Part shown: one piece after another, positions 9,000 through 26,272 of the stretch
Layout of the letters: every line of letters starts with the position of its first letter
Numbering within the stretch: the first letter of the stretch is position 1
Virus record (IMG/VR): IMGVR_UViG_3300021406_000015
Location: 1-53,213 of that record
Strand: one strand, 5' to 3'
DNA: 53,213 nucleotides
From: a virus
Lineage: Duplodnaviria > Caudoviricetes
Notes under the pieces: model-generated
Told to the model about the DNA's origin: nothing
Database searches by the model: none
What the model saw: the letters and a program-made list of their open reading frames with translations, nothing else
Translations under genes and position numbers: made by a program

Positions 9000-9189
9000 G
9001 CGCAGAGTATGCGCAAGTTCTATTTTATCCAGATTCTGGACAGGCCGGGATTTCCACCCGGTTTTGCCAGCTAGGAGTGAGGATGGTTTGGTTTAAACGG
9101 GGATTTACTTCAAGGTGGGAACAGAAACTACGTAGAAGATTCGAAGGGACTGGCGATTGAGGTAATGATGCGCTCAAAAGCGCAGAATG

Positions 9190-9456
9190 TCAAGATTCTT
9201 CTTTTCCTAAAATTTCATCCATCATGGCGTCCATATCGCGACGCCACTCCATTAGTGCTTTGCTATCTGGAGAGGCATCATATTCTGCACGGCTGGCGTT
9301 ATAGATAGCGCGAAACTTCTTTACGGTTTCAGCAATTCTTTGCTCACGCTGTTCTGGTGTCTCTTTCCGATGTGTCCATCGAAACCATAAAGTACGAGGG
9401 AATCGACATATATCAAACCACAACCACCAAAGACGAGATGGATAATTTATGGCCAT
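9190..9456 (-). CDS. hypothetical protein
   Basis: 88 aa ORF; TG-G-TAGATT 6 nt upstream of ATG (leaderless-type). Confidence 0.55.
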   Translation of the reverse strand: MAINYPSRLWWLWFDICRFPRTLWFRWTHRKETPEQREQRIAETVKKFRAIYNASRAEYDASPDSKALMEWRRDMDAMMDEILGKEES

Positions 9457-9476
9457 GGAAGTAATCTACCAGAAGG

Positions 9477-9560
9477 TGGAGCGGGGGACGGGACTTGAAC
9501 CCGCTTGTCTCACGACGGCAGCTTGGAAGGCTGCTGATCTACCAGTTGATCATCCCCCGC
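9477..9560 (-). tRNA. tRNA-Gly(TCC) with long variable arm
   Basis: GCGGGGG/CCCCCGC-T-CCA; GCAGC-CTTCCAA-GCTGC; V-arm GTC-GTGA-GAC. Confidence 0.85.
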
Positions 9561-9565
9561 AACTT

Positions 9566-9639
9566 TGGTGCTCCTCGCAGAAGTCGAATCCGCATCAACC
9601 GCTAATCGGGCGGTGGTCTTGCCATTAGACGAGAGGAGC
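9566..9639 (-). tRNA. tRNA with GAT anticodon (Ile?), atypical loop
   Basis: full cloverleaf with CCA; loop CC-GAT-TA (C33, U37). Confidence 0.7.
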
Positions 9640-9640
9640 A

Positions 9641-9715
9641 TGGTTCCCCGACGCGGGCTCGAACCGCGATAGACGGCTTACCATGCCGTTCCTCTGCCAA
9701 TTGAGGTATCAGGGC
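9641..9715 (-). tRNA. tRNA-Thr(GGT)
   Basis: ACGGC-AT-GGT-AA-GCCGT; CCA; G1.A72 mismatch. Confidence 0.8.
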
Positions 9716-9726
9716 ACTACTAACCT

Positions 9727-9800
9727 TGGTGCCGGGTGCAGGAGTCGAACCCGCGTGAGATGCTTGTAAGACATCCGATCTACCGTTGATGTAACCCGGC
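9727..9800 (-). tRNA. tRNA-Val(TAC)
   Basis: GATGT-CT-TAC-AA-GCATC; A73-CCA. Confidence 0.85.
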
Positions 9801-9807
9801 GATACTA

Positions 9808-9883
9808 TGGAGCAAGCGAACGGACTCGAACCGCTAATTAAGCCTTCGGAGAGCTTTGTGATCTCCAATTTCACCACGCCTGC
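9808..9883 (-). tRNA. tRNA-Arg(CCG)
   Basis: AAGCT-CT-CCG-AA-GGCTT; A20 present; CCA. Confidence 0.85.
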
Positions 9884-9889
9884 AAAACT

Positions 9890-9965
9890 TGGTCAACCCG
9901 CCCGGATACGATCCGGGAACTATGCTTTAGGAGAGCATTGTGATCTCCAGTTTCACCACGGGTTG
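9890..9965 (-). tRNA. tRNA-Arg(CCT)
   Basis: ATGCT-CT-CCT-AA-AGCAT; T-loop ATCGTAT; CCA. Confidence 0.85.
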
Positions 9966-9966
9966 A

Positions 9967-10042
9967 TGGGGCAGCCGGGGTGAGTCGAACACCCTTTGAA
10001 CGCTTTAGAGGAGCGCCACATAATCCGTTCTGTCACGGCTGC
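9967..10042 (-). tRNA. tRNA-Arg(TCT)
   Basis: GCGCT-CC-TCT-AA-AGCGT (C33); A20; CCA. Confidence 0.8.
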
Positions 10043-10836
10043 AAACTGGTGCAAGCGGAGGCGCTCGAAGCCCCATCCTGAGATTTAAAAGATCTCTGCT
10101 CGTCCTCTTGAGCTACGCTTGCGAAACGCTTCTTTTTGGTACCACAATGCCAATCATCTAGCATTCCCAACTTCTGTGCTTTTCTCAACCCAGGAACCAA
10201 TAACATCCACGCCTCATAAGGCATGTCGCGACGGAAATAATTACACCTGTAACAAGCTGGAACCACATTCATTTTAATGTGACCCCTCTTGTTATCGATT
10301 CTATCGAGGGTCATCATCAATTGGGTTTCGGCACAGTAAGAGCATGGGCGCACGATCAATGCTTCAATGAATTCTCTGTCAAGGTCGTTATCTAGCCCAC
10401 GTTTCTTATCGCTGCGCTGCGAATCTCGCATGATGTACGTAGCCCTATTATTCCTGTCGGCTCTTCGAAGCGCTGCTCGAACAGCACGATCACTACTTAC
10501 TTCAGGGCTCCTTTTTCCGCGTGGAAATCGTTTTTTGTATTCAACCTCGCAATCCCTGCACAAGAAGCGCCGATAATAGCGGTTGCCTTGCTTCTTAATC
10601 GCAAATTCAACTTCAGGTTCACCTTTACCGCATACTTTACATTTGTGAATTTTGCGAGGTGTCTTATCGTGTTCCCGAACATATTCACAATGCTTTTCCC
10701 GATTTGCCTCATACCAACGATGACTATACTCAGTAGTGCATTCTCTACACCAAGGCTGTTTACCGTCTTTTTGGCGACTGTTCGCGTTAAAGTTCTCGTC
10801 TTCACGATACTTCTTGCAGCGATTACAGTATCTCAT
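10033..10836 (-). CDS. HNH homing endonuclease inside tRNA block
   Basis: CxxC repeats; CSYC ... LDRIDNKRGH..NVVPACYRCN; 3' end reads through tRNA-Lys(TTT). Confidence 0.8.
   Translation of the reverse strand: MRYCNRCKKYREDENFNANSRQKDGKQPWCRECTTEYSHRWYEANREKHCEYVREHDKTPRKIHKCKVCGKGEPEVEFAIKKQGNRYYRRFLCRDCEVEYKKRFPRGKRSPEVSSDRAVRAALRRADRNNRATYIMRDSQRSDKKRGLDNDLDREFIEALIVRPCSYCAETQLMMTLDRIDNKRGHIKMNVVPACYRCNYFRRDMPYEAWMLLVPGLRKAQKLGMLDDWHCGTKKKRFASVAQEDEQRSFKSQDGASSASACTSLQP
10047..10122 (-). tRNA. tRNA-Lys(TTT)
   Basis: GAGAT-CT-TTT-AA-ATCTC; CCA. Confidence 0.85.
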
Positions 10837-10866
10837 TTACTTTTAAGAATATCACACACACCAATA

Positions 10867-10941
10867 TGGTGGGTCGCCGGGAAGTCGAATCCCGTCAGGA
10901 TGGGTAAGAGCCATCTATGCTACCGTCAACATCTGCGACCC
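10867..10941 (-). tRNA. tRNA-Lys(CTT)
   Basis: GATGG-CT-CTT-AC-CCATC; CCA. Confidence 0.85.
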
Positions 10942-10942
10942 A

Positions 10943-11036
10943 TGGTAGGGGATGTAGGTGCCGAGCCTACCCGTCGCTCTAGTCCAGAACTTTCAGTGGG
11001 TTATAAATCCACTCCGCACAGCCGGTGCTATCCCCC
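10943..11036 (-). tRNA. tRNA-Ile(TAT) with long variable arm
   Basis: GGGGGAT/ATCCCCT-A-CCA; loop TT-TAT-AA; V-arm GTTCT-GGACT-AGAGC. Confidence 0.75.
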
Positions 11037-11046
11037 ATAAATTCGT

Positions 11047-11098
11047 TTCACGGCGGGATGGCGTTGCACCACCGTCTCTAGGCTAACGCCGCCGTGAA
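11047..11098 (-). ncRNA. small tRNA-like RNA (10-bp stem plus T-like arm, no anticodon arm, no CCA)
   Basis: TTCACGGCGG/CCGCCGTGAA; GGTGG-TGCAACG-CCATC. Confidence 0.55.
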
Positions 11099-11100
11099 CT

Positions 11101-11169
11101 TGGTAGCACGTCTGGACTCGAACCAGTTTACGGCATTATGAGAGCCGCTTCCCGCCTTGGGTACGTGCC
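11101..11169 (-). tRNA. compact 69-nt tRNA with CAT anticodon (Met or Ile2)
   Basis: GGCACGT/ACGTGCT-A-CCA; CT-CAT-AA loop; short D arm, 3-nt variable loop, 4-bp T stem. Confidence 0.7.
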
Positions 11170-11174
11170 TTGAA

Positions 11175-11251
11175 TGGCGAGGGTGGCACGATTCGAACGC
11201 GCAAGTTCGGAGTTGGAAACCGACAGTTTGGCCAGTTAAGCTTACACCCTC
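11175..11251 (-). tRNA. tRNA-Trp(CCA)
   Basis: TCGGT-TT-CCA-AC-TCCGA; G73-CCA. Confidence 0.85.
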
Positions 11252-11270
11252 AAAATTTCAAAGATCCAAT

Positions 11271-11296
11271 AAAAAACTCCCGCCTAAGCGAGAGTC
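11271..11296 (-). terminator. attenuator terminator upstream of tRNA block C
   Basis: ACTCTCGC-TTAG-GCGGGAGT-TTTTT between leader ORF and first tRNA. Confidence 0.8.
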
Positions 11297-11322
11297 ATTG
11301 TGCCGCGTATGCACTCAGACCC

Positions 11323-11394
11323 TCATGACACAACTCCCCAGACCCGCTTGGTCCCGGTCATCGATTTGGAAGTTCTTATCTGCACGAAAACCAC
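11323..11394 (-). CDS. leader peptide C (MVFVQIRTSKSMTGTKRVWGVVS)
   Basis: AGAGGAG RBS, GTG start, 23 codons; codons match the downstream Trp/CAT/Ile/Lys/Arg/Val/Thr/Gly tRNAs. Confidence 0.8.
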   Translation of the reverse strand: MVFVQIRTSKSMTGTKRVWGVVS

Positions 11395-11649
11395 TTTACT
11401 CCTCTTCTATTTTTGACGCAAGCACAATCTTGCAATCTCTTAATTCTTTACATGGTGTACAGATTCCAAGACACCGTGGTCCTGCTGTTTTTCCATCAGC
11501 CCGACATAGATGACCCAATGAAAAGCAGACCGCACACCACACCTGATTGGGTGCCTTCTGCACGTTCTTTTTGTGCATGATCAAAGATACCGCAGAACAA
11601 AAAGAAAGGGTGCCCGAAAGCACCCTTGTTGTATCCAGATTCTGGACGG

Positions 11650-12318
11650 TTATGCGCCAACTGTCTCGCCAAGTGCGGCAAACTCCTTAAAGCATCTTGC
11701 GTCATCCCATCCATCCCGTTTTCTTCTCAAGAGAAGTTCATACTTAATTTTTGTGCGCCTCGACCATTCGGCGGCGCATAATGTTTCACCACGAAAAGTA
11801 AGGAGGACACTATTCCGCTTATTTTGTGCCTGAACTTCAACCGTTGCCCATACGCAATTATCTGGCGCGTAATTTCCGTTTACATCACATCTTTCTATAC
11901 TGTGAGATACACTTGGTTTTCTTCCCATATCAGCTAAGAAATTTTCAAAAGACTGCCAGCGCTCACAAACAATAATGCCACGTCCTCCGTAATGTTTGTA
12001 GTATCTAGATGATGGCTTAGTGCAACGGCTCCTCATCGCAACCCACGCCCTCCACTCTGGAGACGATGGCATACCTATACGCTTGCTTTCGCCATGCCGA
12101 ACTAATGTTTCTATGGTGCGTTCTGTACGGTAGCAGCCACATGACTGCGTATGTCCGTTGAGTAGATTTGCTTGGCGAACGCAAACACTGATACCGCATT
12201 TACAGAGACATTGCCAATACGGTTGCCGACCCCATTTGTTGTTGCGATATAGGGGACCACTAACGGTGGTCAGATATCCAAACGTTTGTTCTGGAGTTAC
12301 TAGTTCTAGCGAATGCAT
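11650..12318 (-). CDS. HNH homing endonuclease (CxCxCG / YGGRGI family)
   Basis: CLCKCG, SCGC, YGGRGIIVCERW, SIER.DVNGNY.PDNC.WAT. Confidence 0.85.
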   Translation of the reverse strand: MHSLELVTPEQTFGYLTTVSGPLYRNNKWGRQPYWQCLCKCGISVCVRQANLLNGHTQSCGCYRTERTIETLVRHGESKRIGMPSSPEWRAWVAMRSRCTKPSSRYYKHYGGRGIIVCERWQSFENFLADMGRKPSVSHSIERCDVNGNYAPDNCVWATVEVQAQNKRNSVLLTFRGETLCAAEWSRRTKIKYELLLRRKRDGWDDARCFKEFAALGETVGA

Positions 12319-12341
12319 AGTATCAATTATAAGAGGAAAGT

Positions 12342-12369
12342 AAAAGGCGCACCACAAATCAGTGCGCCT
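12342..12369 (-). terminator. intrinsic terminator ending the Ro60-like operon
   Basis: AGGCGCAC/GTGCGCCT-TTT. Confidence 0.6.
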
Positions 12370-12385
12370 CTTGTGTTGAATTTAG

Positions 12386-12673
12386 TTATGCCTGTAACTC
12401 GGCAAGTTCCTTCTCTAGAGACTCTCTCTTCTCCTCGCGGGACTTGAGACCTTCCAGCGTACTCTTGATCTCGCGCTTACGTGCCTCGCGACGATCTGCC
12501 ATCCGAGCATCGATTTCACGGGAAATGGAATTCAAGTTATCCGAAACGTACTCCGGCACCTGAACCTTCTGAGCCTCGAACTCGCCACGAAGCATCTTCC
12601 CGAAGGCTGACAGCGCAACTAGCTCTTCGATTTCGGATGCCTCAACATTGAAGTTTTTAAACTCCTGAAGCAT
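12386..12673 (-). CDS. coiled-coil hypothetical protein (possible partner of the Ro60-like protein)
   Basis: strong AAGGAGG RBS before MLQEFK; helical heptads. Confidence 0.7.
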   Translation of the reverse strand: MLQEFKNFNVEASEIEELVALSAFGKMLRGEFEAQKVQVPEYVSDNLNSISREIDARMADRREARKREIKSTLEGLKSREEKRESLEKELAELQA

Positions 12674-12771
12674 GGTTTTCCTCCTTTCCGCCGATCTCTT
12701 GCGAGGATCGACAAAGATGTTCGGGCTTCTCTTGCGCCCCTTCGGACTGAAATTCTTCATGTGGCCTGCCA

Positions 12772-13563
12772 TCATGCACCAACCAATTCTTCGCTCTTAC
12801 TTTTGCGATAGTCTCTCATCGCCTTAGCCCTTGCGTCTTTGCAAACATCGCATCGACAACCGTGATACGAATATGCAGACGATGTTCCGTGTGTGACCAT
12901 TCCGCGCGGTAATAAGTTCGGCGTGGTCAAGGTGTCTTCCAATGTCCATCCATTCTGTATTCGCACAAGAATAGTAGACTTATGAAGCCCTAGTTTTCTT
13001 GCCCATTCGACAACCGGGAGAGTTACATCACCAAACGTCAAATTGATCGTAGAAGACCTATTCTGCGCCTGTTCTCGTTTCGTAGACCACTTACAATTCT
13101 CAGGAGAATACCCTTTTGAGCCATCAACACGATCAATCGTGTGTTGAGGAGTAGGCTTCCGCCCCATGTCACTCAGAAACGTTTCATAGGAATGGAGCCA
13201 TTTATCGCAGACTGTTATACCAACCGCTCCATATCGCAAGTAGCTGGCACTTTGCGGTTTGAGGCATCTTTCTTTCATTGAAATCCAACTCCTATATTCC
13301 GAGGTTGGATGTTTGGACTCTCCGTGAACCAACGGAAAACATTCACTATTGCCCGGTTGTTCGCGCCTCAAACAACCACACGATTTGGAATGGCCTCTTC
13401 GCAGCATCTTAGGTGTTTCAAATTTCCGATTGCCGCAATCACAAAGACATTCAACCACTCCCTGATTGCGTCCTCCGAGCTTCATCATCTGAAGCTCGGA
13501 GATAACAGTCCATTTTCCGAATCGCTCACCCAGCGACACTGTATGCAGTCTTAGTGGATGCAT
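12772..13563 (-). CDS. HNH homing endonuclease with C-terminal HG..S.Y...CRC..C zinc motif
   Basis: CLCDCG, SCGC, YGAVGITVC, TIDRVD..KGY.PENCKW; paralogue of 11650..12318. Confidence 0.85.
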   Translation of the reverse strand: MHPLRLHTVSLGERFGKWTVISELQMMKLGGRNQGVVECLCDCGNRKFETPKMLRRGHSKSCGCLRREQPGNSECFPLVHGESKHPTSEYRSWISMKERCLKPQSASYLRYGAVGITVCDKWLHSYETFLSDMGRKPTPQHTIDRVDGSKGYSPENCKWSTKREQAQNRSSTINLTFGDVTLPVVEWARKLGLHKSTILVRIQNGWTLEDTLTTPNLLPRGMVTHGTSSAYSYHGCRCDVCKDARAKAMRDYRKSKSEELVGA

Positions 13564-15043
13564 TGGTCCCCTTTATGGACGTGAGTACATCGCTCAAGCT
13601 AAGAAGCGGTGTGCTCAATATTTCGTCACATAAAGAATACTGATTAGATCGCAATGTGGCAACTGTATTCGGCAGAGAATAGTAGTCCACCGCACCACGA
13701 CGCAGATCGAACGTGGTCATCTCGATTCCAGCCTGCTGCATCCGTGCCGACAGGTAGTCCGGGTCTCCCGCCAACTGGTAGAAGTACACCGGGACGTCCT
13801 TGTCGATCATCTTCGCGTACTTCTTATATACGTCTGCAAAGTACGGTGCGTGGCCCTCGCCGCCGTCCGAGATGATGGCGATGCCATCGACCTCAGTCTT
13901 CTCGACAAGGAGCCGGTTCAAACCGCAGCCAATGGACGTTCCACCACCAGCGCTGATGTGCTGCGTCGCCTTCTTGATCTGATCGAGCGACGAGCCGGTC
14001 ACTTCCACCGACATCGGAGCCGTATCGAAGAACACCAGCCAGACCTTACCCTTCACGTACTGGGCAAGAGTTGCGGAGACGTGCCGCGAGATCTCGATAG
14101 CGTCACGCATGCTACCGCTCTTGTCGGCCAAGACCAGCCAGTTGCCGTCCGGTCCGCCTGCCGCCGCGATCTGCTTCGCCTGTACTGCGCGGAGCTTGTC
14201 CTTCAAGCCTTCGTCATCGACAGCATCGATAGCCGCAGTCGTCTTCAGCGTGGTCTGCTTGGACGTGGCCACCTTCTTCAGTCCTTCCTCGAAGGCCGCG
14301 CGCAGCGCCGGGTTGGTCTTCATACCCAGCTTCTCTAACATCTTCACGTTGGTCTGCAACTCGGTCGCCGACATGCGCGCCATCAGTGCCAGCACGAGAT
14401 CGGTGTCCTTTGCCTTGGCACCCAGAGCGCCCATGGCGATCAGAAACGGGATCTTGTATTTCGAGATCGCGCCCGCCGCCTCAACCGGTGCCATGTCCTT
14501 CAGGTGAGCAACCACCTCAAAGACACTGCCCTTCGGCAACGGAGCCTTGGTCTTGTCGAAATTGCGACCGTACAGCACGACGTTGGTACGCTCCTTCTCC
14601 GGCTTCGCGTGCGCAAGGGCATAAAGCTCTTTCAGTGTGCTACGGTGCTGTACTGCGAGATGGTCCCAGCCGCGATCCTGCTCCTTCTGGTGAAGATATC
14701 CCTCCACCAACCGGCGAAGCTGCCGCATCTTACCCGGCAACCGCAGTTCCAGAGCAAACCTGTAGGCACGCGCCAACTCGCGCGGTCCCAAGAGAGCAAT
14801 ATGCGCCAGCGAGTTGTCCGCCAGTTCGGCGTCCTTCTCGTAGGCAAGGCCGATGACCGGCAGCGCTACCTTGCTGTCGCGAACCTGGCCATGAGTGCGA
14901 TCCCACGCAATCAGGTGCTGGAAGAACTCGCCTTCCTGTAGGACGGCCTTGAGGCCGATGTCGAGGTACTCCTTGAGAGCACCGTGAGATGACTTGGAAA
15001 GTTCAGCGACGATACGCTGACGTGTTACGCCCTGCTCTGCCAT
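13526..15043 (-). CDS. Ro60/TROVE-like RNA-binding protein with C-terminal vWA domain
   Basis: helical N-terminal region; DKSGSM MIDAS, GGGTSIG, IISDG; about 500 aa; downstream of six Y-like RNAs. Ro60 assignment is inferred from architecture and context; alternative start 15052. Confidence 0.7.
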   Translation of the reverse strand: MAEQGVTRQRIVAELSKSSHGALKEYLDIGLKAVLQEGEFFQHLIAWDRTHGQVRDSKVALPVIGLAYEKDAELADNSLAHIALLGPRELARAYRFALELRLPGKMRQLRRLVEGYLHQKEQDRGWDHLAVQHRSTLKELYALAHAKPEKERTNVVLYGRNFDKTKAPLPKGSVFEVVAHLKDMAPVEAAGAISKYKIPFLIAMGALGAKAKDTDLVLALMARMSATELQTNVKMLEKLGMKTNPALRAAFEEGLKKVATSKQTTLKTTAAIDAVDDEGLKDKLRAVQAKQIAAAGGPDGNWLVLADKSGSMRDAIEISRHVSATLAQYVKGKVWLVFFDTAPMSVEVTGSSLDQIKKATQHISAGGGTSIGCGLNRLLVEKTEVDGIAIISDGGEGHAPYFADVYKKYAKMIDKDVPVYFYQLAGDPDYLSARMQQAGIEMTTFDLRRGAVDYYSLPNTVATLRSNQYSLCDEILSTPLLSLSDVLTSIKGTNASTKTAYSVAG

Positions 15044-15069
15044 GGTGTTCATCCTCCCGTGATGAAAAG

Positions 15070-15510
15070 TTAGGCCGCTTTACTTTTATGCCGTCTTAGG
15101 TACTCAATGGCGCACAACAAATTTTCTTCATCGTCCATAAATAACCCTAGAGCGCAATTACAACGCTGGCATAGAAAACCTCTAAATTTTCCGGTTTCGT
15201 GATCGTGGTCCCACTGAAATCCTTTTGAAGTTGGACCACATCCACAAATCTCGCATACCTGAACCGACTTCTTTGCCTCGCGCCTTTTCTTAGATTCAGA
15301 CGTGGCCCAATATGGCGACTCACCATCCTTGGATTTACGAATTCGACTACCGGTACGCTTCTGCCCCTTAAACCTATTTTCGGCAAGAGAACAAGCAAAG
15401 CGCATCCCTCGGTTTTTCTTCTTGACGCGCACTAGACCACAATGGGCACATTCACCCATCATTGCGTTTTCGTCCACGTTGATTATTTTGTGAATTCGTT
15501 GACCACGCAA
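15070..15510 (-). CDS. endonuclease VII-like HNH nuclease
   Basis: CEIC ... DHDHETGKFRGFLCQRCNCALG. Confidence 0.85.
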   Translation of the reverse strand: MRGQRIHKIINVDENAMMGECAHCGLVRVKKKNRGMRFACSLAENRFKGQKRTGSRIRKSKDGESPYWATSESKKRREAKKSVQVCEICGCGPTSKGFQWDHDHETGKFRGFLCQRCNCALGLFMDDEENLLCAIEYLRRHKSKAA

Positions 15511-15528
15511 GGCGTCTTCCTTTTGTTG

Positions 15529-15640
15529 ACGGGGAACCCCGGTTTTGAGCCGAGATTACCGAGCCGAAGCCCGATTAAGCATGTATCCAACGACAGTGAG
15601 CATTTCTGCTAAGTCGTTTGGAACCTCTTAGGTTCCCCGT
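15529..15640 (-). ncRNA. Y-RNA-like RNA 6
   Basis: ACGGGGAAC/GTTCCCCGT outer stem; internal helix followed by TACATG; UUCG hairpin; T-like arm. Confidence 0.65.
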
Positions 15641-15647
15641 AACTTTA

Positions 15648-15772
15648 TGGCGTTAAGGCTTGCTGGATGTTTACGCGTGCTGCCGCTGCACCACGAGAAG
15701 CTAGGCTTCTCGGCGGGATTCGAACCCGCGTCTCGGTCGCCAAAGGACATGTACCCAACAAAATAAACGCCA
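15648..15772 (-). ncRNA. Y-RNA-like RNA 5 (YrlA topology)
   Basis: outer helix, TACATG, T arm GCGGG-TTCGAAT-CCCGC, closed acceptor-like hairpin, D arm GTGC/GCAC. Confidence 0.8.
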
Positions 15773-15778
15773 ATCTAG

Positions 15779-15899
15779 TGGAGCCGGGTGCTGGAGTTGA
15801 ACCAGCGTGTTCAGGACTATGCGACCTGTGCATGTATCCACTTGGGTTATACGGTTGCCCGTAAAGGTGCTAGTGGCGTTACCGTTTTGCTAACCCGGC
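15779..15899 (-). ncRNA. Y-RNA-like RNA 4 (CCA-ended tRNA with inserted helix)
   Basis: GCCGGGT/ACCCGGC-T-CCA; helix plus TACATG inserted between D and anticodon-like arms. Confidence 0.7.
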
Positions 15900-15907
15900 T
15901 CATCTTA

Positions 15908-16028
15908 TGGTGGAGGGCCTGCGATTCGAACGCAGTAGAGTTACAACCAAATGTTACTCTTTGCCATGTAGCCAAGAAAAGTGTCCGTCGAAACGGAAAG
16001 TCGATCTCGGTTTGTTTTTTAGCCCCCC
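15908..16028 (-). ncRNA. Y-RNA-like RNA 3 (Ala-identity acceptor stem, CCA)
   Basis: GGGGGGC/GCCCTCC-A-CCA with G3.U70; T arm; internal helix plus TACATG. Confidence 0.7.
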
Positions 16029-16037
16029 ACAACTTAA

Positions 16038-16175
16038 TGGGTTGAAGTCTCTCAGGTAGCATCCCTTTCGGGAATGCCTGATTTGAAGTCAGGTGCCTAA
16101 CCATTCGGCTAATTCACCTCACGGTGAATCTTGGATTCGAACCAAGATAACATGTAACCTGAAACGTACAACCCA
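16038..16175 (-). ncRNA. Y-RNA-like RNA 2 (permuted tRNA domain with TCA anticodon arm)
   Basis: outer helix, TACATG, T arm, GTGA-capped acceptor hairpin, D arm, CCTGA-CTTCAAA-TCAGG, GAAA hairpin. Confidence 0.75.
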
Positions 16176-16181
16176 AACTTA

Positions 16182-16305
16182 TTGCGTCAAGACGTTGAGC
16201 GATTCCCTTTCGGGAACGGAATCGGAATTGAACCGACTACCCTCAGATTACAAGTCTGATGCTCTACCAAATGAGCTATCCATGTACGCTCAACAATAGA
16301 CGCAA
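16182..16305 (-). ncRNA. Y-RNA-like RNA 1 (embedded D, anticodon TGT and T arms)
   Basis: TTGCGTC..GTTGAGCG/CGCTCAAC..GACGCAA outer helix; TACATG; tRNA core with only a 3-bp acceptor. Confidence 0.75.
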
Positions 16306-16353
16306 ACTCAAAAACTCTCAAAGAACTTTCTTGGGCCTGAGCCCAACTTCACA

Positions 16354-16382
16354 ACTCTACATCAGTTTCGCGATGCGCGCAA
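16354..16382 (-). promoter_or_regulatory. promoter for the Y-like RNA / Ro60-like operon
   Basis: TTGCGC-17 nt-TAGAGT. Confidence 0.5.
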
Positions 16383-16402
16383 TTAAAATCTGCGCTTTTT
16401 TA

Positions 16403-16481
16403 TGGAAGGGCTGACAGGACTTGAACCTGCTACCTCCGAGTTCGTAGCTCGGCGCTCTCTATCCAGATGAGCTACAGCCCC
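16403..16481 (-). tRNA. tRNA-Arg(ACG)
   Basis: CCGAG-CT-ACG-AA-CTCGG; CCA. Confidence 0.9.
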
Positions 16482-16490
16482 TAAAAGGGA

Positions 16491-16564
16491 TGGTCGGGGT
16501 ATGAGGATTTAAACCTCAGATGCCGCGTCCCAGGCGCGGAGTGTTTTCGCTACACTATACCCCG
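16491..16564 (-). tRNA. tRNA-Pro(TGG)
   Basis: C1-G72, A73; CCGCG-CC-TGG-GA-CGCGG (C33). Confidence 0.8.
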
Positions 16565-16674
16565 ATATTTAATTCCAATTTGCTACTACGGCCACAATGC
16601 ACAAAATCCCAACCAATGCGAGGTAGACGCAGATACTAAATTTTCCAAATGCTTCCAGCGTTTCAATTCTCGAA

Positions 16675-16878
16675 TCACGCATCGCAACCTCGTTTCTCTT
16701 CCTTCACAACATAATGCCGCTCAGGACCATTTTCCGCCGCCGAGTTGAGTACGTCCACAAGTTGACCCGGCTCGATAAATGCAACATCCGGACCCATCGG
16801 ACAAAACGGAAACAGTGCAGCCTTTCGCTTTTCAGACTTGTGATAGCACTCTTCGGTCTGTACGTAAACCTGTGACAT
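16675..16878 (-). CDS. hypothetical protein
   Basis: AGGAGG RBS, 67 aa. Confidence 0.55.
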   Translation of the reverse strand: MSQVYVQTEECYHKSEKRKAALFPFCPMGPDVAFIEPGQLVDVLNSAAENGPERHYVVKEEKRGCDA

Positions 16879-16891
16879 GTCGCCTCCTATA

Positions 16892-23641: not shown

Positions 23642-23669
23642 CTTTAGCATTGTCCAGATTCTGGAGCAA
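23642..23669 (-). promoter_or_regulatory. promoter of the Met/Asp/Glu tRNA block overlapped by the 13-bp palindrome
   Basis: TTGCTC ... TG-C-TAAAGT with TCCAGAATCTGGA (23653..23665) overlapping the -35 and spacer. Confidence 0.55.
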
Positions 23670-23670
23670 G

Positions 23671-24333
23671 CTAATTTGCGCTCATCGTATACCCGATACT
23701 CCCGAATTTCACTGAATATGCGCCTCCACCCGGAGTCCCGTTGATTACCTGCTGAAGCTGGGTCACGATCTGCGATGGTGCCCATCCTTGTTTCTTGGCC
23801 GGAATCTTCTGAAGAGAGGGACTGACCAGTGTCTTGGTACCGTTTACCGTGACCGCCAAGACAGAGCTTGTTAACCCAACGAAGTCCAACGCATAATCGA
23901 TCTGCACCGGTACCCACATGTTCGGAGTTGGGATGGTTCCGATCTTGATGCCGGTATCGGTCCAAGATCCGGCTGCATTGTCGATCTGAAACATCCAGCC
24001 CTCGTTAAGATTCCACTGTGCTGAGAGGTCGTAGGTGTTTCCAGCAGCGTCTGTGATCTTCGAGTCTGTCTCGATTACCTGTCCACATTGCAAGGTCGCA
24101 TCATCAATCTGAAAGCTGTAGAGGAAGGATATTGCCGGGAACGGATACAGGAGAGAACTAACGTTTTTAGCTAACCATCCTGAATACGCTGGACCGCAAC
24201 AGTAGAGCCTGATGCCGTCCGGAATCTGGACAAAGTCATAGCCGCTGGGAGAGATCGGGTTGATGGTGGGTCCGACGTTCTTTGTCCAGCCAGTGGAGGA
24301 TTCAAGATTGGTAATGGTACATGCAAGGCTCAT
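23671..24333 (-). CDS. beta-rich hypothetical protein (possible lectin/glucanase-like fold)
   Basis: 220 aa, Trp/Thr/Gly-rich; TATAAT 7 nt before ATG; fold is a guess. Confidence 0.65.
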   Translation of the reverse strand: MSLACTITNLESSTGWTKNVGPTINPISPSGYDFVQIPDGIRLYCCGPAYSGWLAKNVSSLLYPFPAISFLYSFQIDDATLQCGQVIETDSKITDAAGNTYDLSAQWNLNEGWMFQIDNAAGSWTDTGIKIGTIPTPNMWVPVQIDYALDFVGLTSSVLAVTVNGTKTLVSPSLQKIPAKKQGWAPSQIVTQLQQVINGTPGGGAYSVKFGSIGYTMSAN

Positions 24334-24351
24334 GCGCGGAATTATAACTTA

Positions 24352-24435
24352 TGGTGCACTGGGAGAGAATCGAACTCTCGATAGCCTTATGGCCAACTGT
24401 TTTACAGACAGTGTCCGCTCCACGCGGTCCAGTGC
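24352..24435 (-). tRNA. tRNA-Tyr(GTA)
   Basis: ACTGT-CT-GTA-AA-ACAGT; long V arm; CCA. Confidence 0.85.
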
Positions 24436-24441
24436 ACAACA

Positions 24442-24529
24442 TGGTGGCGAGCCAGAGTGTCGATCTCTCATCCCTCTCAGGAGCCAACGGTTTTCAAGGC
24501 CGTTCGCAGAGCCGTCTGCGGGACTCGCC
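24442..24529 (-). tRNA. tRNA-Ser(TGA)
   Basis: loop CT-TGA-AA; long V arm; CCA. Confidence 0.8.
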
Positions 24530-24534
24530 AAACT

Positions 24535-24623
24535 TGGCGGTAGGCTGAGCATCGAAGCCCCGTGCCATCGCTGACACGTCACCGGTTTTCGAGGCCGGGT
24601 GGAGAACTTCTCCGAAACCTACC
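24535..24623 (-). tRNA. tRNA-Ser(CGA)
   Basis: loop CT-CGA-AA; long V arm; G73-CCA. Confidence 0.8.
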
Positions 24624-24624
24624 A

Positions 24625-24709
24625 TGGCGGAAAGAGCAGCATCGAAGCTGATACCTTTCGGTACGCACCGATTTCCAGTCGGGCCTCGCACCTCGCGAGT
24701 TCACTTTCC
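24625..24709 (-). tRNA. tRNA-Ser(GGA)
   Basis: loop CT-GGA-AA; long V arm; G73-CCA. Confidence 0.85.
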
Positions 24710-24714
24710 AAAAA

Positions 24715-24801
24715 TGGCGGAGAGCCGAGCGCACGATGCCCACACCCGAAGGTGCCATTCGTTTAGCAAACGACGCCGTCAGCCCCAACGGTTGACTCTC
24801 C
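24715..24801 (-). tRNA. tRNA-Ser(GCT)
   Basis: loop TT-GCT-AA; long V arm; G73-CCA. Confidence 0.85.
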
Positions 24802-24816
24802 GTGAAACTTCTCTGA

Positions 24817-24916
24817 TATTCACCGTGACGGGACTTGAACCCGCAAGGTCGGTGTTACTCCGTGAAACACGTTTGCCATTGTTCTGACTCTCGTCGCTTT
24901 CGCCACACAATGAATA
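24817..24916 (-). ncRNA. tRNA-like RNA with 11-bp terminal stem and canonical T arm
   Basis: TATTCATTGTG/CACGGTGAATA; GCGGG-TTCAAGT-CCCGT; internal GNRA hairpins; no CCA. Confidence 0.6.
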
Positions 24917-24924
24917 CCAGAACT

Positions 24925-25009
24925 TGGTGCCGGTCGCGGATAACGAGTCCGCACGCCATTTACGGCACTGGCTTTTGAGGCCAGCATGTCTGCATTCCAT
25001 CAGACCGGC
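24925..25009 (-). tRNA. tRNA-Leu(CAA)
   Basis: CTGGC-CT-CAA-AA-GCCAG; V arm; A73-CCA. Confidence 0.85.
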
Positions 25010-25016
25010 AAAAACT

Positions 25017-25102
25017 TGGTGCAGGTAGAGGGACTTGAACCCCCACGCCACTAGGGCAATGGTTTCTAAAACCATCTCGGCTTCCAATTACGACATACCT
25101 GC
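25017..25102 (-). tRNA. tRNA-Leu(TAG)
   Basis: ATGGT-TT-TAG-AA-ACCAT; V arm; CCA. Confidence 0.9.
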
Positions 25103-25109
25103 ACATCTT

Positions 25110-25197
25110 TGGTGCTCCAGAACGGACTTGAACCGTCAAATCTCATCAGAGAAACAAGACCCTCAGTCTTGCGCGTTTTCCTTTTCGCCACTGGAGC
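25110..25197 (-). tRNA. tRNA-Leu(GAG)
   Basis: CAAGA-CT-GAG-GG-TCTTG; V arm; CCA. Confidence 0.9.
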
Positions 25198-25209
25198 AAA
25201 ACTAAACTT

Positions 25210-25287
25210 TGGACGACCGGGCCGGATTTTAACCGACGAAACTAGATGGGTTGCGGCCATCCGCGTTAAACACTTCGCCACCGGTCG
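25210..25287 (-). tRNA. tRNA-Cys(GCA)
   Basis: GATGG-CC-GCA-AC-CCATC (C33); U73-CCA. Confidence 0.8.
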
Positions 25288-25288
25288 A

Positions 25289-25376
25289 TGGTGCGGGAAG
25301 CGGGACTCTAACCCGCACGAGAGTTAAATCTCAAGAGGGTTTAAGCCTCTCATGTCTGACATTCCATCATTCCCGC
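25289..25376 (-). tRNA. tRNA-Leu(TAA)
   Basis: AGAGG-CT-TAA-AC-CCTCT; V arm; CCA. Confidence 0.9.
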
Positions 25377-25383
25377 ATAAACT

Positions 25384-25413
25384 AAAACAGCCCCCGATTT
25401 TGGTCGGAGGCTG
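25384..25413 (-). terminator. attenuator terminator upstream of tRNA block A
   Basis: CAGCCTCCGA-CCAAAA-TCGGGGGCTG-TTTT. Confidence 0.85.
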
Positions 25414-25438
25414 CTGTAACCCAGAAAATCGATCCGGC

Positions 25439-25510
25439 TTACATACGCGCCTCCATGCCGCTCAGTGAGCAGCTATACAAGGACGACGAGAGTAAGCTTA
25501 GGAGTTTCAT
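25439..25510 (-). CDS. leader peptide A (MKLLSLLSSSLYSCSLSGMEARM)
   Basis: 23 codons; codons 3-17 are all Leu/Ser/Tyr/Cys, matching the 10 downstream tRNAs. Confidence 0.85.
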   Translation of the reverse strand: MKLLSLLSSSLYSCSLSGMEARM

Positions 25511-25520
25511 ACGCAGGAAC

Positions 25521-25549
25521 ATGATTCCACGGATTTATTTTGGTGTCAA
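25521..25549 (-). promoter_or_regulatory. promoter of tRNA block A
   Basis: TTGACA-17 nt-AATCAT with TG extension, 10 nt before leader ATG. Confidence 0.6.
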
Positions 25550-25552
25550 GAT

Positions 25553-26017
25553 TTAATTAACAAAGTGCTGTATCGGATCGCCAACAACAGTCCATCCTGT
25601 CGTCGGTGTCGTCGTATATGCCGGGGTTACCCAACTACACGAAGTTGACTTCGGCGGTGTGTATGGTGCGGGCACGATGAACTTGTAATCTTCACTGTAC
25701 TGAATCCCGCCTTCCCAACCCTCACTCGGTTTCCAGTCGTGTGCGGCAGCTTCCTGTTCGGGTGTTGGCTTTGGTGGAGTGCAAGTGCCATGAAGGTCTA
25801 GCGTAATACATGCCGTTGACGGATAGACGATCTCTTCCATCGCGTACTTCCGCCGAATCTTTAAATCAAATTCCGCTTGTTGCTTTGCAAGGTCGGCGCG
25901 GGCGTCTGCCAGATGTTTGGCTTCCACCGCTTCTGTAGGGCTGAGTGCAATAACCTTGGCATTTTGTGCGTAACAACAAGACACCGACAGTGCTAATACG
26001 ACAAGGGATAGCTTCAT
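25553..26017 (-). CDS. exported hypothetical protein
   Basis: signal peptide MKLSLVVLALSVSCCYA; AAGGAG RBS. Confidence 0.7.
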   Translation of the reverse strand: MKLSLVVLALSVSCCYAQNAKVIALSPTEAVEAKHLADARADLAKQQAEFDLKIRRKYAMEEIVYPSTACITLDLHGTCTPPKPTPEQEAAAHDWKPSEGWEGGIQYSEDYKFIVPAPYTPPKSTSCSWVTPAYTTTPTTGWTVVGDPIQHFVN

Positions 26018-26089
26018 TTAACTCTCCTTTGAGCAATTTAGTACAGCTCGATATTCGTTTTGGGCATCTGATTGCAAGTGAGGTGAACT

Positions 26090-26272
26090 ATGATTTCGCT
26101 CGTCATCACAGTAATTGTGTTCATGTTGCTGGTCTGGTTGCTCTACTATGTTGCCAAACAGTTGGGTGCGCCAGATAAGTTTCTCAATATTGCCGTGGCG
26201 GTCGTGTGCGTCCTATTCTTGATCTGGTTCCTGACCCAAGCGGCTCCAATGATCGGACATTTTGGAAGATAA
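26090..26272 (+). CDS. small two-TM membrane protein
   Basis: two hydrophobic helices; GAGGTG RBS. Confidence 0.7.
   Translation: MISLVITVIVFMLLVWLLYYVAKQLGAPDKFLNIAVAVVCVLFLIWFLTQAAPMIGHFGR

What the first reader, a model, noticed from the sequence alone, without database searches (positions are those of the whole stretch)
9477..25549. Codon-matched leader-peptide attenuators controlling three phage tRNA operons
Seen: three tRNA blocks are each preceded by a 23-27 codon ORF and an intrinsic terminator, and the end of each ORF is complementary to the terminator's 5' side. Each leader is written in the codons read by its own block, even when an amino acid is split between blocks. Arg: AGA/CGG in leader C (TCT, CCG tRNAs) versus CGA/CGT in leader B (ACG tRNA). 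Gly: GGG/GGA in C (TCC) versus GGT/GGC in B (GCC). Thr: ACT/ACC in C (GGT) versus mostly ACA/ACG in B (TGT). In total 29 of the 32 tRNAs in these blocks have a cognate codon in their own leader. Established: trp/his/thr-type attenuation senses charged tRNA to control amino-acid biosynthesis genes. Inference: the same logic is wired here to tRNA genes as multi-input sensors. Loss of a listed tRNA (starvation, host anticodon nucleases or toxins) stalls the ribosome, frees the anti-terminator and supplies that tRNA set, with negative feedback. I know of no description of this arrangement but could not search the literature.
Basis: partly seen in the sequence, partly recalled or inferred. Interest (0 to 1): 0.96.

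Follow-up and report, generated by a model that had tools for sequence, protein, structure and literature searches.

The report
Leader-peptide attenuators controlling phage tRNA genes
A soil phage places, in front of each group of its tRNA genes, a tiny coding sequence written in the codons that those same tRNAs read, followed by a transcription stop signal, which looks like a self-adjusting switch that makes more tRNA only when the ribosome runs short of it.

Summary
The core observation holds, and comparison with related phages strengthens it. On the minus strand, three units (promoter-like site, 22-27 codon ORF, intrinsic terminator) sit 10-24 nt before tRNA genes.

**Codon match in the window**
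- Own-block match is 20/26, 18/26 and 12/22 codons, against 2-8 for the other blocks.
- No shuffle of tRNAs among blocks reaches this (0 of 100,000).
- Five tRNAs that default ARAGORN missed (Leu-CAA and four Ser) are all represented in leader A.

**Related contigs**
- Fourteen related contigs from soil and peat carry homologous leaders. Residue order is scrambled, but composition, reading frame, promoter-to-ATG spacing and stop-to-terminator spacing are kept.
- A 102-kb relative partitions its tRNAs differently, and its leaders follow that partition (0 of 20,000 shuffles).

- The Arg tRNA is CCT, not TCT.
- 25 of 32 tRNAs have a cognate codon under strict wobble, not 29.
- The blocks are interrupted by ORFs.

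**Weak points**
- Anti-terminator pairing is weak for window leaders B and C.
- Translation and regulated read-through are inferred, not shown.

**Best reading (about 0.7):** ribosome-mediated attenuation that senses charged tRNA and feeds back on the tRNA genes. Seven full-text searches found no description of this arrangement.

The parts
25521..25549 (-). Promoter-like site of unit A (TTGACA, 17 nt, -10 hexamer with TG upstream)
   Evidence: 10 of 12 matches; sequence. The -10 overlaps the first ATG (25522). The second ATG (25510) lies 10 nt after it.
25439..25522 (-). Leader ORF A (27 codons from 25522, or 23 from 25510). It holds a run of 15 consecutive Leu/Ser/Tyr/Cys codons. Stop is TAA.
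   Evidence: 20/26 (long form) or 18/22 (short form) codons are read by own-block tRNAs.
25446..25455 (-). Putative anti-terminator 5' strand of unit A (last codons of the leader)
   Evidence: Best duplex with the terminator 5' arm is -15.6 kcal/mol, z = -1.9 against 300 dinucleotide shuffles. The same pairing appears when the 3' arm is removed.
25386..25415 (-). Intrinsic terminator A (12-bp stem plus T-run), 23 nt after the stop and 10 nt before tRNA-Leu(TAA)
   Evidence: dG -20.0.
24352..25376 (-). First tRNA cluster of block A: Leu(TAA), Cys, Leu(GAG), Leu(TAG), Leu(CAA), one odd tRNA-like stretch (24820-24912), Ser(GCT), Ser(GGA), Ser(CGA), Ser(TGA), Tyr
   Evidence: default ARAGORN; relaxed ARAGORN; Rfam: tRNA 38 bits at 24928-25009; tRNA-Sec model 43.8 bits at 24445-24530, anticodon loop reads UGA.
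21147..23637 (-). Rest of block A, interrupted by ORFs: Met(CAT), Asp, Glu(CTC), Glu(TTC), Thr(AGT), suppressor(CTA)
   Evidence: Asp, Thr(AGT) and the suppressor have no codon in leader A. A promoter-like site lies directly before Asp.
19388..19415 (-). Promoter-like site of unit B (TTGACA, 16 nt, -10); ATG follows 12 nt later
   Evidence: Sequence; found by the rule-based scan.
19292..19375 (-). Leader ORF B (27 codons, stop TAG). 21 of 26 residues belong to the set Asn, Gln, Gly, Thr, His, Ala, Phe, Pro, Arg.
   Evidence: 18/26 codons are read by own-block tRNAs.
19225..19262 (-). Intrinsic terminator B (GC-rich stem plus T-run), about 29-31 nt after the stop and about 20 nt before tRNA-Asn
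   Evidence: dG -21.6 to -23.7.
16212..19205 (-). Block B tRNAs, interrupted by ORFs: Asn, Gln(CTG), Gln(TTG), Gly(GCC), Thr(TGT), His, Ala, Phe, Pro, Arg(ACG), Thr(TGT)
   Evidence: 10 of 11 have a cognate codon in leader B; His does not.
11323..11394 (-). Leader ORF C (23 codons, GTG start preceded by GAGGAG at 11404-11399, stop TGA). 17 of 22 residues belong to the set Trp, Met, Lys, Arg, Val, Thr, Ile, Gly.
   Evidence: 12/22 codons under strict wobble.
11275..11296 (-). Intrinsic terminator C (9-bp stem plus T-run), 26 nt after the stop and 24 nt before tRNA-Trp
9477..11251 (-). Block C tRNAs: Trp, a CAT tRNA (11101-11169, relaxed call), Lys(CTT), then an HNH-like ORF, then Lys(TTT), suppressor(CTA), Arg(CCT), Arg(CCG), Val, Thr(GGT), Ile(GAT), Gly(TCC)
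   Evidence: 7 of 10 default tRNAs have a cognate codon in leader C.

Best explanation
These are ribosome-mediated (leader-peptide) transcription attenuators placed in front of tRNA genes.

Proposed mechanism:
1. Each unit is transcribed from its own promoter, with the start codon at or within a few bases of the 5' end. It is probably leaderless; unit C has a Shine-Dalgarno sequence instead.
2. A ribosome translates 22-27 codons chosen from those that the downstream tRNAs decode.
3. If all those aminoacyl-tRNAs are plentiful, the ribosome reaches the stop codon and covers the last codons. These are the only good partner for the terminator's 5' arm. The terminator then forms 23-31 nt further on and transcription ends before the tRNA genes.
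4. If any one of the sensed tRNAs is scarce, the ribosome stalls early. The ORF end pairs with the terminator's 5' arm, and RNA polymerase reads into the tRNA block.
5. The new tRNAs relieve the stall, closing a negative feedback loop.

Shown here:
- the anatomy;
- the codon-to-tRNA correspondence;
- its conservation and covariation across relatives.

Inferred:
- translation of the leaders;
- the sign of the switch;
- the physiological trigger.
For: **Codon match in the window**
- Own-block match is far above chance: 0 of 100,000 tRNA shuffles reach it, and each leader is at or next to the top of 513 small ORFs.
- The match holds at synonymous-codon level (Fisher p=0.0047).

**An unplanned prediction fulfilled**
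- Leader A holds 7 Ser codons of four kinds (AGC, TCG, TCC, TCA), although default ARAGORN found no Ser tRNA.
- Four Ser tRNAs with exactly the matching anticodons, plus Leu(CAA), turned up in the cluster behind it.

**Independent replication in L003**
- Its tRNA partition differs, and its leaders match own blocks 13/21 and 17/27 against 1-5 (0 of 20,000 shuffles).

**Blind scan**
- Among 330 ORF/array-entry pairs in 30 arrays, the window's leaders rank 1, 2 and 5, and L003's first leader ranks 4.

**Homologues**
- Found: 5 class A, 14 class B and 3 class C leaders. Nucleotide identity is about 51% in class B.
- Class-set residues in frame versus the +1 and +2 frames (21 of these 22; the class C leader of L158 was not scored): A 70/114 versus 24/105 and 21/107; B 315/374 versus 209/358 and 188/343; C 34/44 versus 12/38 and 13/41.

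**Coverage of each block by its leader**
- tRNAs with a cognate codon in the leader: L040 13/13, L043 10/10, L003 block 2 14/15, L044 class A 10/11.

**Conserved geometry (rule-based scan)**
- The scan found 16 clade leaders. The ATG lies 4-12 nt after the -10.
- The stop-to-hairpin distance is 23-33 nt in 15 of the 16.

**Anti-terminator complementarity**
- Negative z in 13 of 14 leaders (mean -1.73); 7 of 14 are at or below the 5% tail of shuffles.
- The partner always lies between -36 and +16 of the stop codon.

**Specificity to tRNA arrays**
- 3.9 Mb of tRNA-poor loci gave 46 rule-based candidates.
- Only 4 had a class-like composition, and 2 of those are true leaders on truncated contigs.

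**RNA libraries**
- Contigs from soil metatranscriptome runs of two studies match with 0 differences. They bridge leader C, its terminator and tRNA-Trp (11025-11370 and 11167-11349).
- One contig bridges leader B, its terminator and the start of tRNA-Asn (19186-19508).
- This is weak evidence: contigs show neither ends nor strand, and DNA carry-over is not excluded.
Against: - Equilibrium folding favours the terminator in nearly all masking states.
- The anti-terminator is not distinguishable from shuffles for window leaders B and C (z = -0.5 and -0.9).
- 4 to 10 codons per window leader have no own-block tRNA.
- Some tRNAs go unsensed. Leader B has no His codon although tRNA-His is in its block. 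Leader A has no Asp or Thr codon.
- AGA and ATA in leader C lack strict cognates, unless the CAT tRNA at 11101 reads ATA.
- Blocks are 5-8 kb long with ORFs inside, and there is a promoter-like site before tRNA-Asp. Control may therefore reach only the proximal cluster.
- L003's third candidate leader has no clear promoter or terminator. It matches block 1 almost as well as its own block (12/29 versus 13/29).
- Some hairpins lack a good T-run (L037, L038 class B, L003 leader 2).
- Nothing comparable was found in Streptomyces phage NootNoot, which shares the vWA / tRNA array / Ro layout.
- Nothing comparable was found in about 30 other viral tRNA arrays, apart from one candidate in L016/L033.
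- There is no evidence of translation, and no RNA cover of leader A.
Confidence: 0.72

Rival explanations
1. Same parts, opposite sign. Efficient translation of the leader, possible only when the matching tRNAs are already plentiful, promotes read-through. It would do so by keeping the ribosome close behind RNA polymerase or by opening an upstream structure. This would be a feed-forward or licensing switch rather than a shortage sensor.
For: - All evidence that the ORFs are codon-matched and conserved fits this reading equally well.
- The anti-terminator is weak for window leaders B and C.
- In leader B, reading through the TAG stop would extend the frame by 9 codons to a TGA that ends next to the terminator stem (sequence). 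The phage also carries two CTA-anticodon tRNAs.
Against: - The stop codon lies 23-33 nt before the hairpin in 15 of 16 leaders. By general knowledge of ribosome footprints, that is too far for a terminating ribosome to cover the stem.
- The best partner of the terminator's 5' arm sits where a terminating ribosome would mask it. That is the layout of shortage-sensing attenuators.
- Positive feedback on tRNA supply has no obvious stable set point.
Confidence: 0.1
2. The hairpins are constitutive, leaky terminators (or RNA processing and stability elements) that merely set the level of tRNA transcription. The small ORFs would be translated for another reason, or not at all, and codon composition would play no part in termination.
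For: - No direct evidence of regulation exists.
- Equilibrium folds favour the terminator.
- Some relatives have hairpins without good T-runs.
- RNA contigs bridge terminators B and C.
Against: It does not explain:
- why a frame-specific composition tracks the tRNA set of each block across 15 contigs and across a different partition;
- why the ORF, its length and the stop-to-hairpin spacing are kept while the sequence drifts to about 51% identity.
Confidence: 0.08
3. The ORFs encode small functional peptides, for example membrane-active Leu/Ser-rich peptides, and the resemblance to the tRNA sets is a by-product.
For: - Leader A is hydrophobic and low in complexity.
- Class C leaders share a conserved C-terminal stretch.
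Against: - Residue order is scrambled between homologues while composition is kept.
- Three unrelated compositions each match the adjacent tRNAs.
- L003's leaders follow its own partition.
- The conserved stretch of class C spans the stop codon and continues into untranslated sequence. This points to an RNA constraint rather than a peptide constraint.
Confidence: 0.04
4. Chance, plus selection of favourable ORFs by the reader.
For: The region holds 339 ORFs of at least 20 codons, so some choice of ORF was possible.
Against: - Shuffles: 0 of 100,000 and 0 of 20,000 reach the observed match.
- Top ranks in a blind scan.
- Recovery by a rule that ignores codon content.
- Low background in 3.9 Mb of control DNA.
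Confidence: 0.01

Closest known systems
Leader-peptide transcription attenuators of amino-acid biosynthesis operons in Enterobacteria (trp, his, leu, thr, pheA; the multivalent ilvGMEDA leader). Recalled from general knowledge; pheL as described in PMC3082878 (passages seen).
   Same: - A short ORF at the 5' end of the transcript, enriched in the codons that report on the product.
- An intrinsic terminator between the leader and the regulated genes.
- The terminator's 5' arm can pair with the end of the leader.
- The stop codon is placed so that a terminating ribosome masks that partner.
- Like ilv, several amino acids are sensed by one leader.
   Different: - The regulated genes are tRNA genes, not enzymes. 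The sensed molecule is itself the product.
- 4 to 9 amino acids and up to about 14 tRNA species are sensed by one leader, instead of a run of one codon.
- Synonymous codons are chosen to fit particular isoacceptors.
- Most leaders seem to start at or near the 5' end without a Shine-Dalgarno sequence.
- The element is viral.
pheM-pheST attenuator (a leader peptide controlling phenylalanyl-tRNA synthetase; recalled)
   Same: Attenuation applied to a gene of the translation apparatus, which restores the supply of charged tRNA.
   Different: It controls a synthetase for one amino acid, not the tRNA genes.
T-box riboswitches
   Same: They sense tRNA status and switch between a terminator and an anti-terminator in front of translation-related genes.
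   Different: - T-boxes bind uncharged tRNA directly through a specifier codon and need no ribosome or ORF.
- No T-box or other leader family of Rfam matched 9000-26500 at E up to 1.
Phage tRNAs as counter-measures to tRNA-cleaving defences (PMC10264068, passages searched; PMC11555353 and PMC11464382, listing and abstract start only)
   Same: They give a reason why a phage would need to replace particular host tRNAs on demand.
   Different: Those papers concern what phage tRNAs do. In PMC10264068 the words attenuat-, leader, terminator and promoter do not occur.

Membership tests
Ribosome-mediated (leader-peptide) transcription attenuator | A short ORF close to the transcript's 5' end, upstream of the regulated genes | tested here: met
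   - ORFs of 22-27 codons lie behind promoter-like sites.
- The ATG lies 4-12 nt after the -10 in the 16 clade leaders found by rule.
- Transcription start sites themselves were not mapped.
Ribosome-mediated (leader-peptide) transcription attenuator | Leader enriched in codons that report on the regulated product | tested here: met
   (shuffle, frame and synonymous-codon tests).
Ribosome-mediated (leader-peptide) transcription attenuator | Intrinsic terminator between the leader and the regulated genes, with no promoter in between | tested here: met
   - Hairpins of -13 to -24 kcal/mol with T-runs end 10-24 nt before the first tRNA.
- That gap is too short for a promoter.
Ribosome-mediated (leader-peptide) transcription attenuator | An alternative anti-terminator pairing that overlaps the terminator's 5' arm and is masked by a ribosome at the stop codon | tested here: inconclusive
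   - The best partner always lies at -36 to +16 of the stop codon.
- z is negative in 13 of 14 leaders (mean -1.73), but only -1.9, -0.5 and -0.9 for window leaders A, B and C.
- In class C a conserved G-rich box at the stop faces three different C-rich terminator arms (read by eye).
Ribosome-mediated (leader-peptide) transcription attenuator | The leader is translated | not testable with these tools
   Indirect only: open frame, length and frame-specific composition are kept across 15 contigs.
Ribosome-mediated (leader-peptide) transcription attenuator | Read-through rises when the cognate charged tRNA is scarce | not testable with these tools
   RNA contigs bridge terminators B and C but cannot show regulation.
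T-box riboswitch | Stem I with a specifier loop and the conserved T-box sequence in the anti-terminator | tested here: not met
   No T-box family matched in the Rfam scan of 9000-26500 at E up to 1.

The most novel reading that the evidence does not exclude
A lineage of large soil phages, probably infecting Acidobacteriota, regulates its tRNA genes by closed-loop, multi-input attenuation. Each block of 8-16 tRNA genes is preceded by a mostly leaderless mini-ORF that lists the codons of that block, isoacceptor by isoacceptor. Depletion of any one species, whether by codon demand, host shut-off or a tRNA-cleaving defence, switches on the whole block, and replenishment switches it off. This would be the first case of tRNA genes controlled by a leader peptide. 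It would also be a natural example of a sensor whose input set evolves in step with the gene content behind it.
Probability: 0.6. Interest if true: 0.92.

Novelty: new variant of a known kind. Interest (0 to 1): 0.88.

Why it matters
**tRNA gene regulation.** In bacteria and phages, tRNA genes are generally thought to be controlled at the promoter (growth rate, stringent response) and by processing. A ribosome-based sensor that reads the supply of the very tRNAs it controls would be a new regulatory wiring.

**Phage biology.** It would show that phages meter their tRNA supply rather than simply adding to it. This bears on the open debate over whether phage tRNAs serve codon compensation or counter-defence.

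**Evolution.** The leader is a written list of what the phage treats as one regulatory unit. Leaders and arrays together give a readable record of how tRNA arrays are rearranged.

**Engineering.** The design is compact, and its inputs are set by synonymous codon choice. It could serve as a portable sensor of individual tRNA isoacceptors.

**Annotation.** These 70-85 nt ORFs, and the four atypical Ser tRNAs, are missed by standard gene and tRNA calling.

Tried and rejected
**Searches and checks that led nowhere**
- Megablast of 9400-25600 against GenBank phages: no match.
- The 154-aa protein upstream of leader A has no relative in viral contigs.
- I recalled that E. coli tRNA-Phe genes carry an attenuator-like leader. 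In K-12, pheV has a promoter directly before the tRNA and no leader ORF. PMC3082878 does not mention such a leader. I dropped the recollection.
- Streptomyces phage NootNoot has a vWA homologue, then a tRNA array, with a Ro protein inside the array. Its small CDSs before tRNAs show no enrichment for the next tRNAs.
- TAG recoding: reading TAG as Gln does not merge or lengthen the main ORFs, so the two CTA tRNAs are not explained by recoding in this window.
- Nucleotide alignment of the class B leaders is too poor (51% identity) for covariation analysis, so I did not build a covariance model.
- The 508-aa ORF versus NootNoot Ro: only E=0.005, in the vWA part. It has no PDB relative by sequence. 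Pfam gives only a sub-threshold VWA_CoxE match.
- RNA runs give no cover of 24417-26100 (leader A) or 9000-10141. This proves nothing, because contigs are patchy.
- The joints in table 5c link tRNA genes through unrelated letters. I take them as other organisms' tRNAs.

**Literature**
- Seven full-text searches found no description of leader-peptide control of tRNA genes.
- An eighth search was for context only.
- Subscription journals and supplements were not searched.

**Correction to my notebook**
- My note says 21 clade leaders among the 43 candidates. Recounting the printed rows gives 16.

Full report
**1. What is in the window**

The window is an IMG/VR virus record of 53 kb, estimated 63% complete. 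Default ARAGORN finds 32 tRNA genes, all on the minus strand between 9477 and 25376. They are not three compact blocks. They form about a dozen small clusters separated by ORFs of 54-508 codons, several with HNH-type Cys/His motifs.

Three places share the same layout on the minus strand:
- Unit A: a promoter-like site at 25549-25521, an ORF at 25522-25439 with a second in-frame ATG at 25510, and a hairpin plus T-run at 25415-25386. tRNA-Leu(TAA) follows 10 nt later.
- Unit B: a TTGACA box at 19415-19410, an ORF at 19375-19292, and a hairpin at about 19260-19227. tRNA-Asn follows about 20 nt later.
- Unit C: a GAGGAG box, a GTG-initiated ORF at 11394-11323, and a hairpin at 11296-11275. tRNA-Trp follows 24 nt later.

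Rfam finds no known leader, riboswitch or T-box at these places.

**2. Is the codon match real?**

I scored codons under strict wobble rules: G34 reads C/U, C34 reads G, U34 reads A/G, A34 reads U/C/A.

| Leader | Own block | Other blocks |
|---|---|---|
| A | 20/26 | 8/26, 4/26 |
| B | 18/26 | 6/26, 2/26 |
| C | 12/22 | 7/22, 3/22 |

- Among all 513 ORFs of 20-40 codons in the six frames of the window, those reaching each leader's own-block fraction number 1, 2 and 1, counting the leader itself.
- When the tRNAs are dealt out at random among the three blocks, none of 100,000 deals reaches the observed total of 50/74. The mean is 28.3 and the maximum 48.
- The match extends to synonymous codons. 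For Thr, Arg and Gly, which have tRNAs in both blocks B and C, leader B uses 7 B-type codons and 1 C-type. Leader C uses 0 B-type, 6 C-type and 1 that neither block reads (Fisher p=0.0047).

**3.

Leader A contains seven Ser codons of four kinds, yet default ARAGORN listed no Ser tRNA.
- Rfam and relaxed ARAGORN find five more tRNA genes in the apparent gap 24436-25016. These are Leu(CAA), Ser(GCT), Ser(GGA), Ser(CGA) and Ser(TGA).
- All five have their cognate codon in leader A.
- From its second ATG, leader A has a run of 15 consecutive Leu/Ser/Tyr/Cys codons. The cluster directly behind it holds Leu, Cys, Ser and Tyr tRNAs, plus one odd tRNA-like stretch (24820-24912).

**4. Corrections to the finding**

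- The Arg tRNA at 9890-9965 is CCT, not TCT.
- 25 of the 32 tRNAs have a cognate codon in their own leader under strict wobble, not 29.
- The tRNAs without one are Asp, Thr(AGT), both CTA suppressors, His, Arg(CCT) and Ile(GAT).
- A promoter-like site lies directly before tRNA-Asp. This may explain why Asp is absent from leader A.

**5. Relatives: conservation**

The 277-aa vWA-like protein just upstream of unit B served as a handle. I found leaders in 14 further contigs from soil, peat and groundwater data. Three of these contigs had been binned into Acidobacteriota MAGs, which is only a weak hint about the host.

The leaders fall into the same three classes:
- 5 of class A (Leu/Ser/Tyr/Cys core);
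- 14 of class B (Asn, Gln, Gly, Thr, His, Ala, Phe, Pro, Arg);
- 3 of class C (Trp, Met, Lys, Arg, Val, Thr, Ile, Gly).

Within a class the nucleotide sequences are only about half identical and residue order differs, but the composition is kept. The enrichment is specific to the reading frame (21 of the 22 leaders scored, the class C leader of L158 not included):

| Class | In frame | +1 frame | +2 frame |
|---|---|---|---|
| A | 70/114 | 24/105 | 21/107 |
| B | 315/374 | 209/358 | 188/343 |
| C | 34/44 | 12/38 | 13/41 |

Where a contig holds most of a block, nearly every tRNA is represented in the leader: 13/13, 10/10, 10/11 and 11/13.

**6. Relatives: covariation**

L003 is a complete 102-kb genome with terminal repeats. 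It orders its 32 tRNAs differently.
- Behind the vWA gene come Asn, Met, Ile, Val, Ile, Lys, Lys and four Arg. The leader there is rich in exactly these residues (13/21 codons, against 5 and 1 for the other blocks).
- A second unit precedes Glu, Glu, Gln, Gln, Asp, Trp, Gly, Gly, Cys, Thr, Ala, Pro, Pro. Its leader matches 17/27, against 4 and 1.
- No shuffle of 20,000 reaches these totals.
- Both leaders fit their own blocks better than any block of the window.
- A third candidate, before the Leu/Ser/Tyr cluster, is doubtful. It has no clear promoter or terminator and matches 13/29 own against 12/29 for block 1.

**7. Is the pattern found without looking at codons?**

- A blind scan scored every small ORF within 300 nt upstream of every array entry point in 30 arrays. 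It ranked the window's leaders 1, 2 and 5, and L003's first leader 4, out of 330.
- I then applied a rule that ignores codon content. It requires TTGACA with at most one mismatch, a 16-18 nt spacer and a -10 with at least 3/6 matches. It also requires an ATG 4-13 nt later, an ORF of 12-45 codons, and a hairpin of -10 kcal/mol or better with a T-run 8-45 nt after the stop.
- This rule gave 43 candidates in 52 tRNA-rich loci. Sixteen are leaders of this clade, all upstream of tRNAs on the same strand. The other 27 are scattered.
- In 3.9 Mb of tRNA-poor control loci the same rule gave 46 candidates. Only 4 had a class-like composition, and 2 of those are true leaders on contigs cut off just behind the first tRNA.

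**8. Geometry and folding**

- In the 16 rule-found leaders the ATG lies 4-12 nt after the -10. The stop codon lies 23-33 nt before the hairpin in 15 of them.
- A start this close to the promoter suggests leaderless or nearly leaderless messages. This is an inference; no start site is mapped.
- Full-length folds contain the terminator in all three window units.
- With the 3' arm left out, the 5' arm pairs with the last codons of the ORF.
- Across 14 leaders with good terminators, the best upstream partner of the 5' arm always lies between -36 and +16 of the stop. It is stronger than dinucleotide shuffles in 13 of them (mean z -1.73; 7 at or below 5%).
- For the window itself the values are modest: -1.9, -0.5 and -0.9.
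- In class C a G-rich box spanning the stop codon is conserved. It faces three different C-rich terminator arms (read by eye).

A terminating ribosome would mask this partner but would not reach the hairpin. That is the layout of shortage-sensing attenuators.

**9. RNA data**

- Two soil metatranscriptome runs from two studies hold parts of the region as assembled contigs with no differences.
- Contigs bridge leader C, its terminator and tRNA-Trp (11025-11370 and 11167-11349).
- One contig bridges the vWA 3' end, leader B, its terminator and the start of tRNA-Asn (19186-19508).
- This is compatible with read-through transcripts. However, contigs show no ends, strand or level, and DNA carry-over cannot be excluded.

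**10. Interpretation**

The most economical reading is classical ribosome-mediated attenuation wired to tRNA genes.
- Fast translation of a leader that samples the block's codons leads to termination.
- A stall at any sampled codon leads to read-through and synthesis of that tRNA set, which then removes the stall.

The rivals are listed with their odds: reverse sign, constitutive leaky terminators, functional peptides and chance. Only the first two are not excluded by the comparative data.

What triggers shortage in nature is open. Candidates are codon demand of the phage, host shut-off, tRNA-cleaving defences of the kind reviewed in PMC10264068, or amino-acid starvation.

**11. Novelty**

Seven full-text searches of the held library found no paper describing a leader peptide or attenuator in front of tRNA genes, phage or cellular. 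Subscription journals are mostly absent from that library, and supplements were closed.

The mechanism belongs to a known kind. New features are the target class, the multi-isoacceptor input, the apparent leaderless start and the viral setting. The arrangement seems confined to this clade. One further candidate lies in an unrelated contig pair (L016/L033): a 15-codon ORF plus a strong terminator 8 nt before eight tRNAs, seven of which it samples.

Noticed in passing
window 9967-10042 and 21147-21220 (minus strand): There are two tRNAs with the amber-reading anticodon CTA. Reading TAG as sense does not lengthen the main ORFs, so there is no sign of recoding here. Leader B stops at TAG. Read-through would extend it by 9 codons to a TGA that abuts the terminator stem.
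   Followed up: partly
window 15553-16323 (minus strand) and ORF 13526-15052: A YrlA (Y RNA-like) match of 32.9 bits, below the gathering score of 69, lies at 15644-15773. It sits beside tRNA-like pieces and a 508-aa ORF with a weak vWA match. The stretch 15553-16323 is the only one covered by long zero-difference RNA contigs in both metatranscriptome runs. Streptomyces phage NootNoot has an annotated Ro protein inside its tRNA array, but similarity to the 508-aa ORF is only E=0.005.
   Followed up: partly
window 24820-24912 (minus strand): An odd tRNA-like stretch lies between Leu(CAA) and Ser(GCT). It scores 18.5 bits on the Rfam tRNA model, and relaxed ARAGORN gives it an 8-base anticodon loop. 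It may be a decayed or unusual tRNA, perhaps the Leu(CAG) that relatives such as L158 carry at this place.
   Followed up: no
window 10033-10836, 15070-15510, 17966-18517, 22954-23481 and others; L037, L043, L106, L159: HNH-type endonuclease-like ORFs are inserted between tRNA genes. In four relatives one sits exactly between the attenuator's terminator and the first tRNA (gaps of 509-721 nt). There it would come under the same control.
   Followed up: no
alignment A2 (class B leaders): A GGTAAT hexamer (Gly-Asn codons) is invariant in all 10 aligned class B leaders, although the rest is about 51% identical. Two more distant class B leaders (L107, L158) lack the Asn codon. The reason is unknown; it could be a pause site, part of a pairing, or a sensing hotspot.
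   Followed up: no
L016 5666-5713 (minus strand) and the near-identical L033: In an unrelated viral contig, a 15-codon ORF starts 18 nt after a tRNA. It is followed by a strong terminator 8 nt before Cys, Met, Tyr, Lys, Phe, Ile, Glu and Arg tRNAs. Seven of the 8 are sampled by the ORF (9/14 codons). This may be an independent case, but chance is not excluded.
   Followed up: partly
window 19420-20253; L105 (NootNoot) 19980-20591: A vWA-like protein sits directly before a tRNA array, both in this clade and in Streptomyces BE-type phages, and its closest named-phage match (36% identity) is in Myxococcus phage Mx1, whose tRNA context was not examined. This suggests a conserved module of unknown role linked to tRNA arrays.
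   Followed up: partly
window 22958-22986 and 20425-20453 (minus strand): TTGACA-type promoter-like sites lie directly before tRNA-Asp and 7 nt before the ATG of a 70-codon ORF (20417). The second fits leaderless expression of ordinary genes in this phage.
   Followed up: no
L158, L159, L160 (genome collection): The closest relatives in the genome collection lie on contigs binned into Acidobacteriota MAGs (Ca. Acidiferrales, Silvibacterium, Terracidiphilus). One is a 131-kb contig that looks like a whole phage genome. This is a hint about the host from binning only.
   Followed up: no
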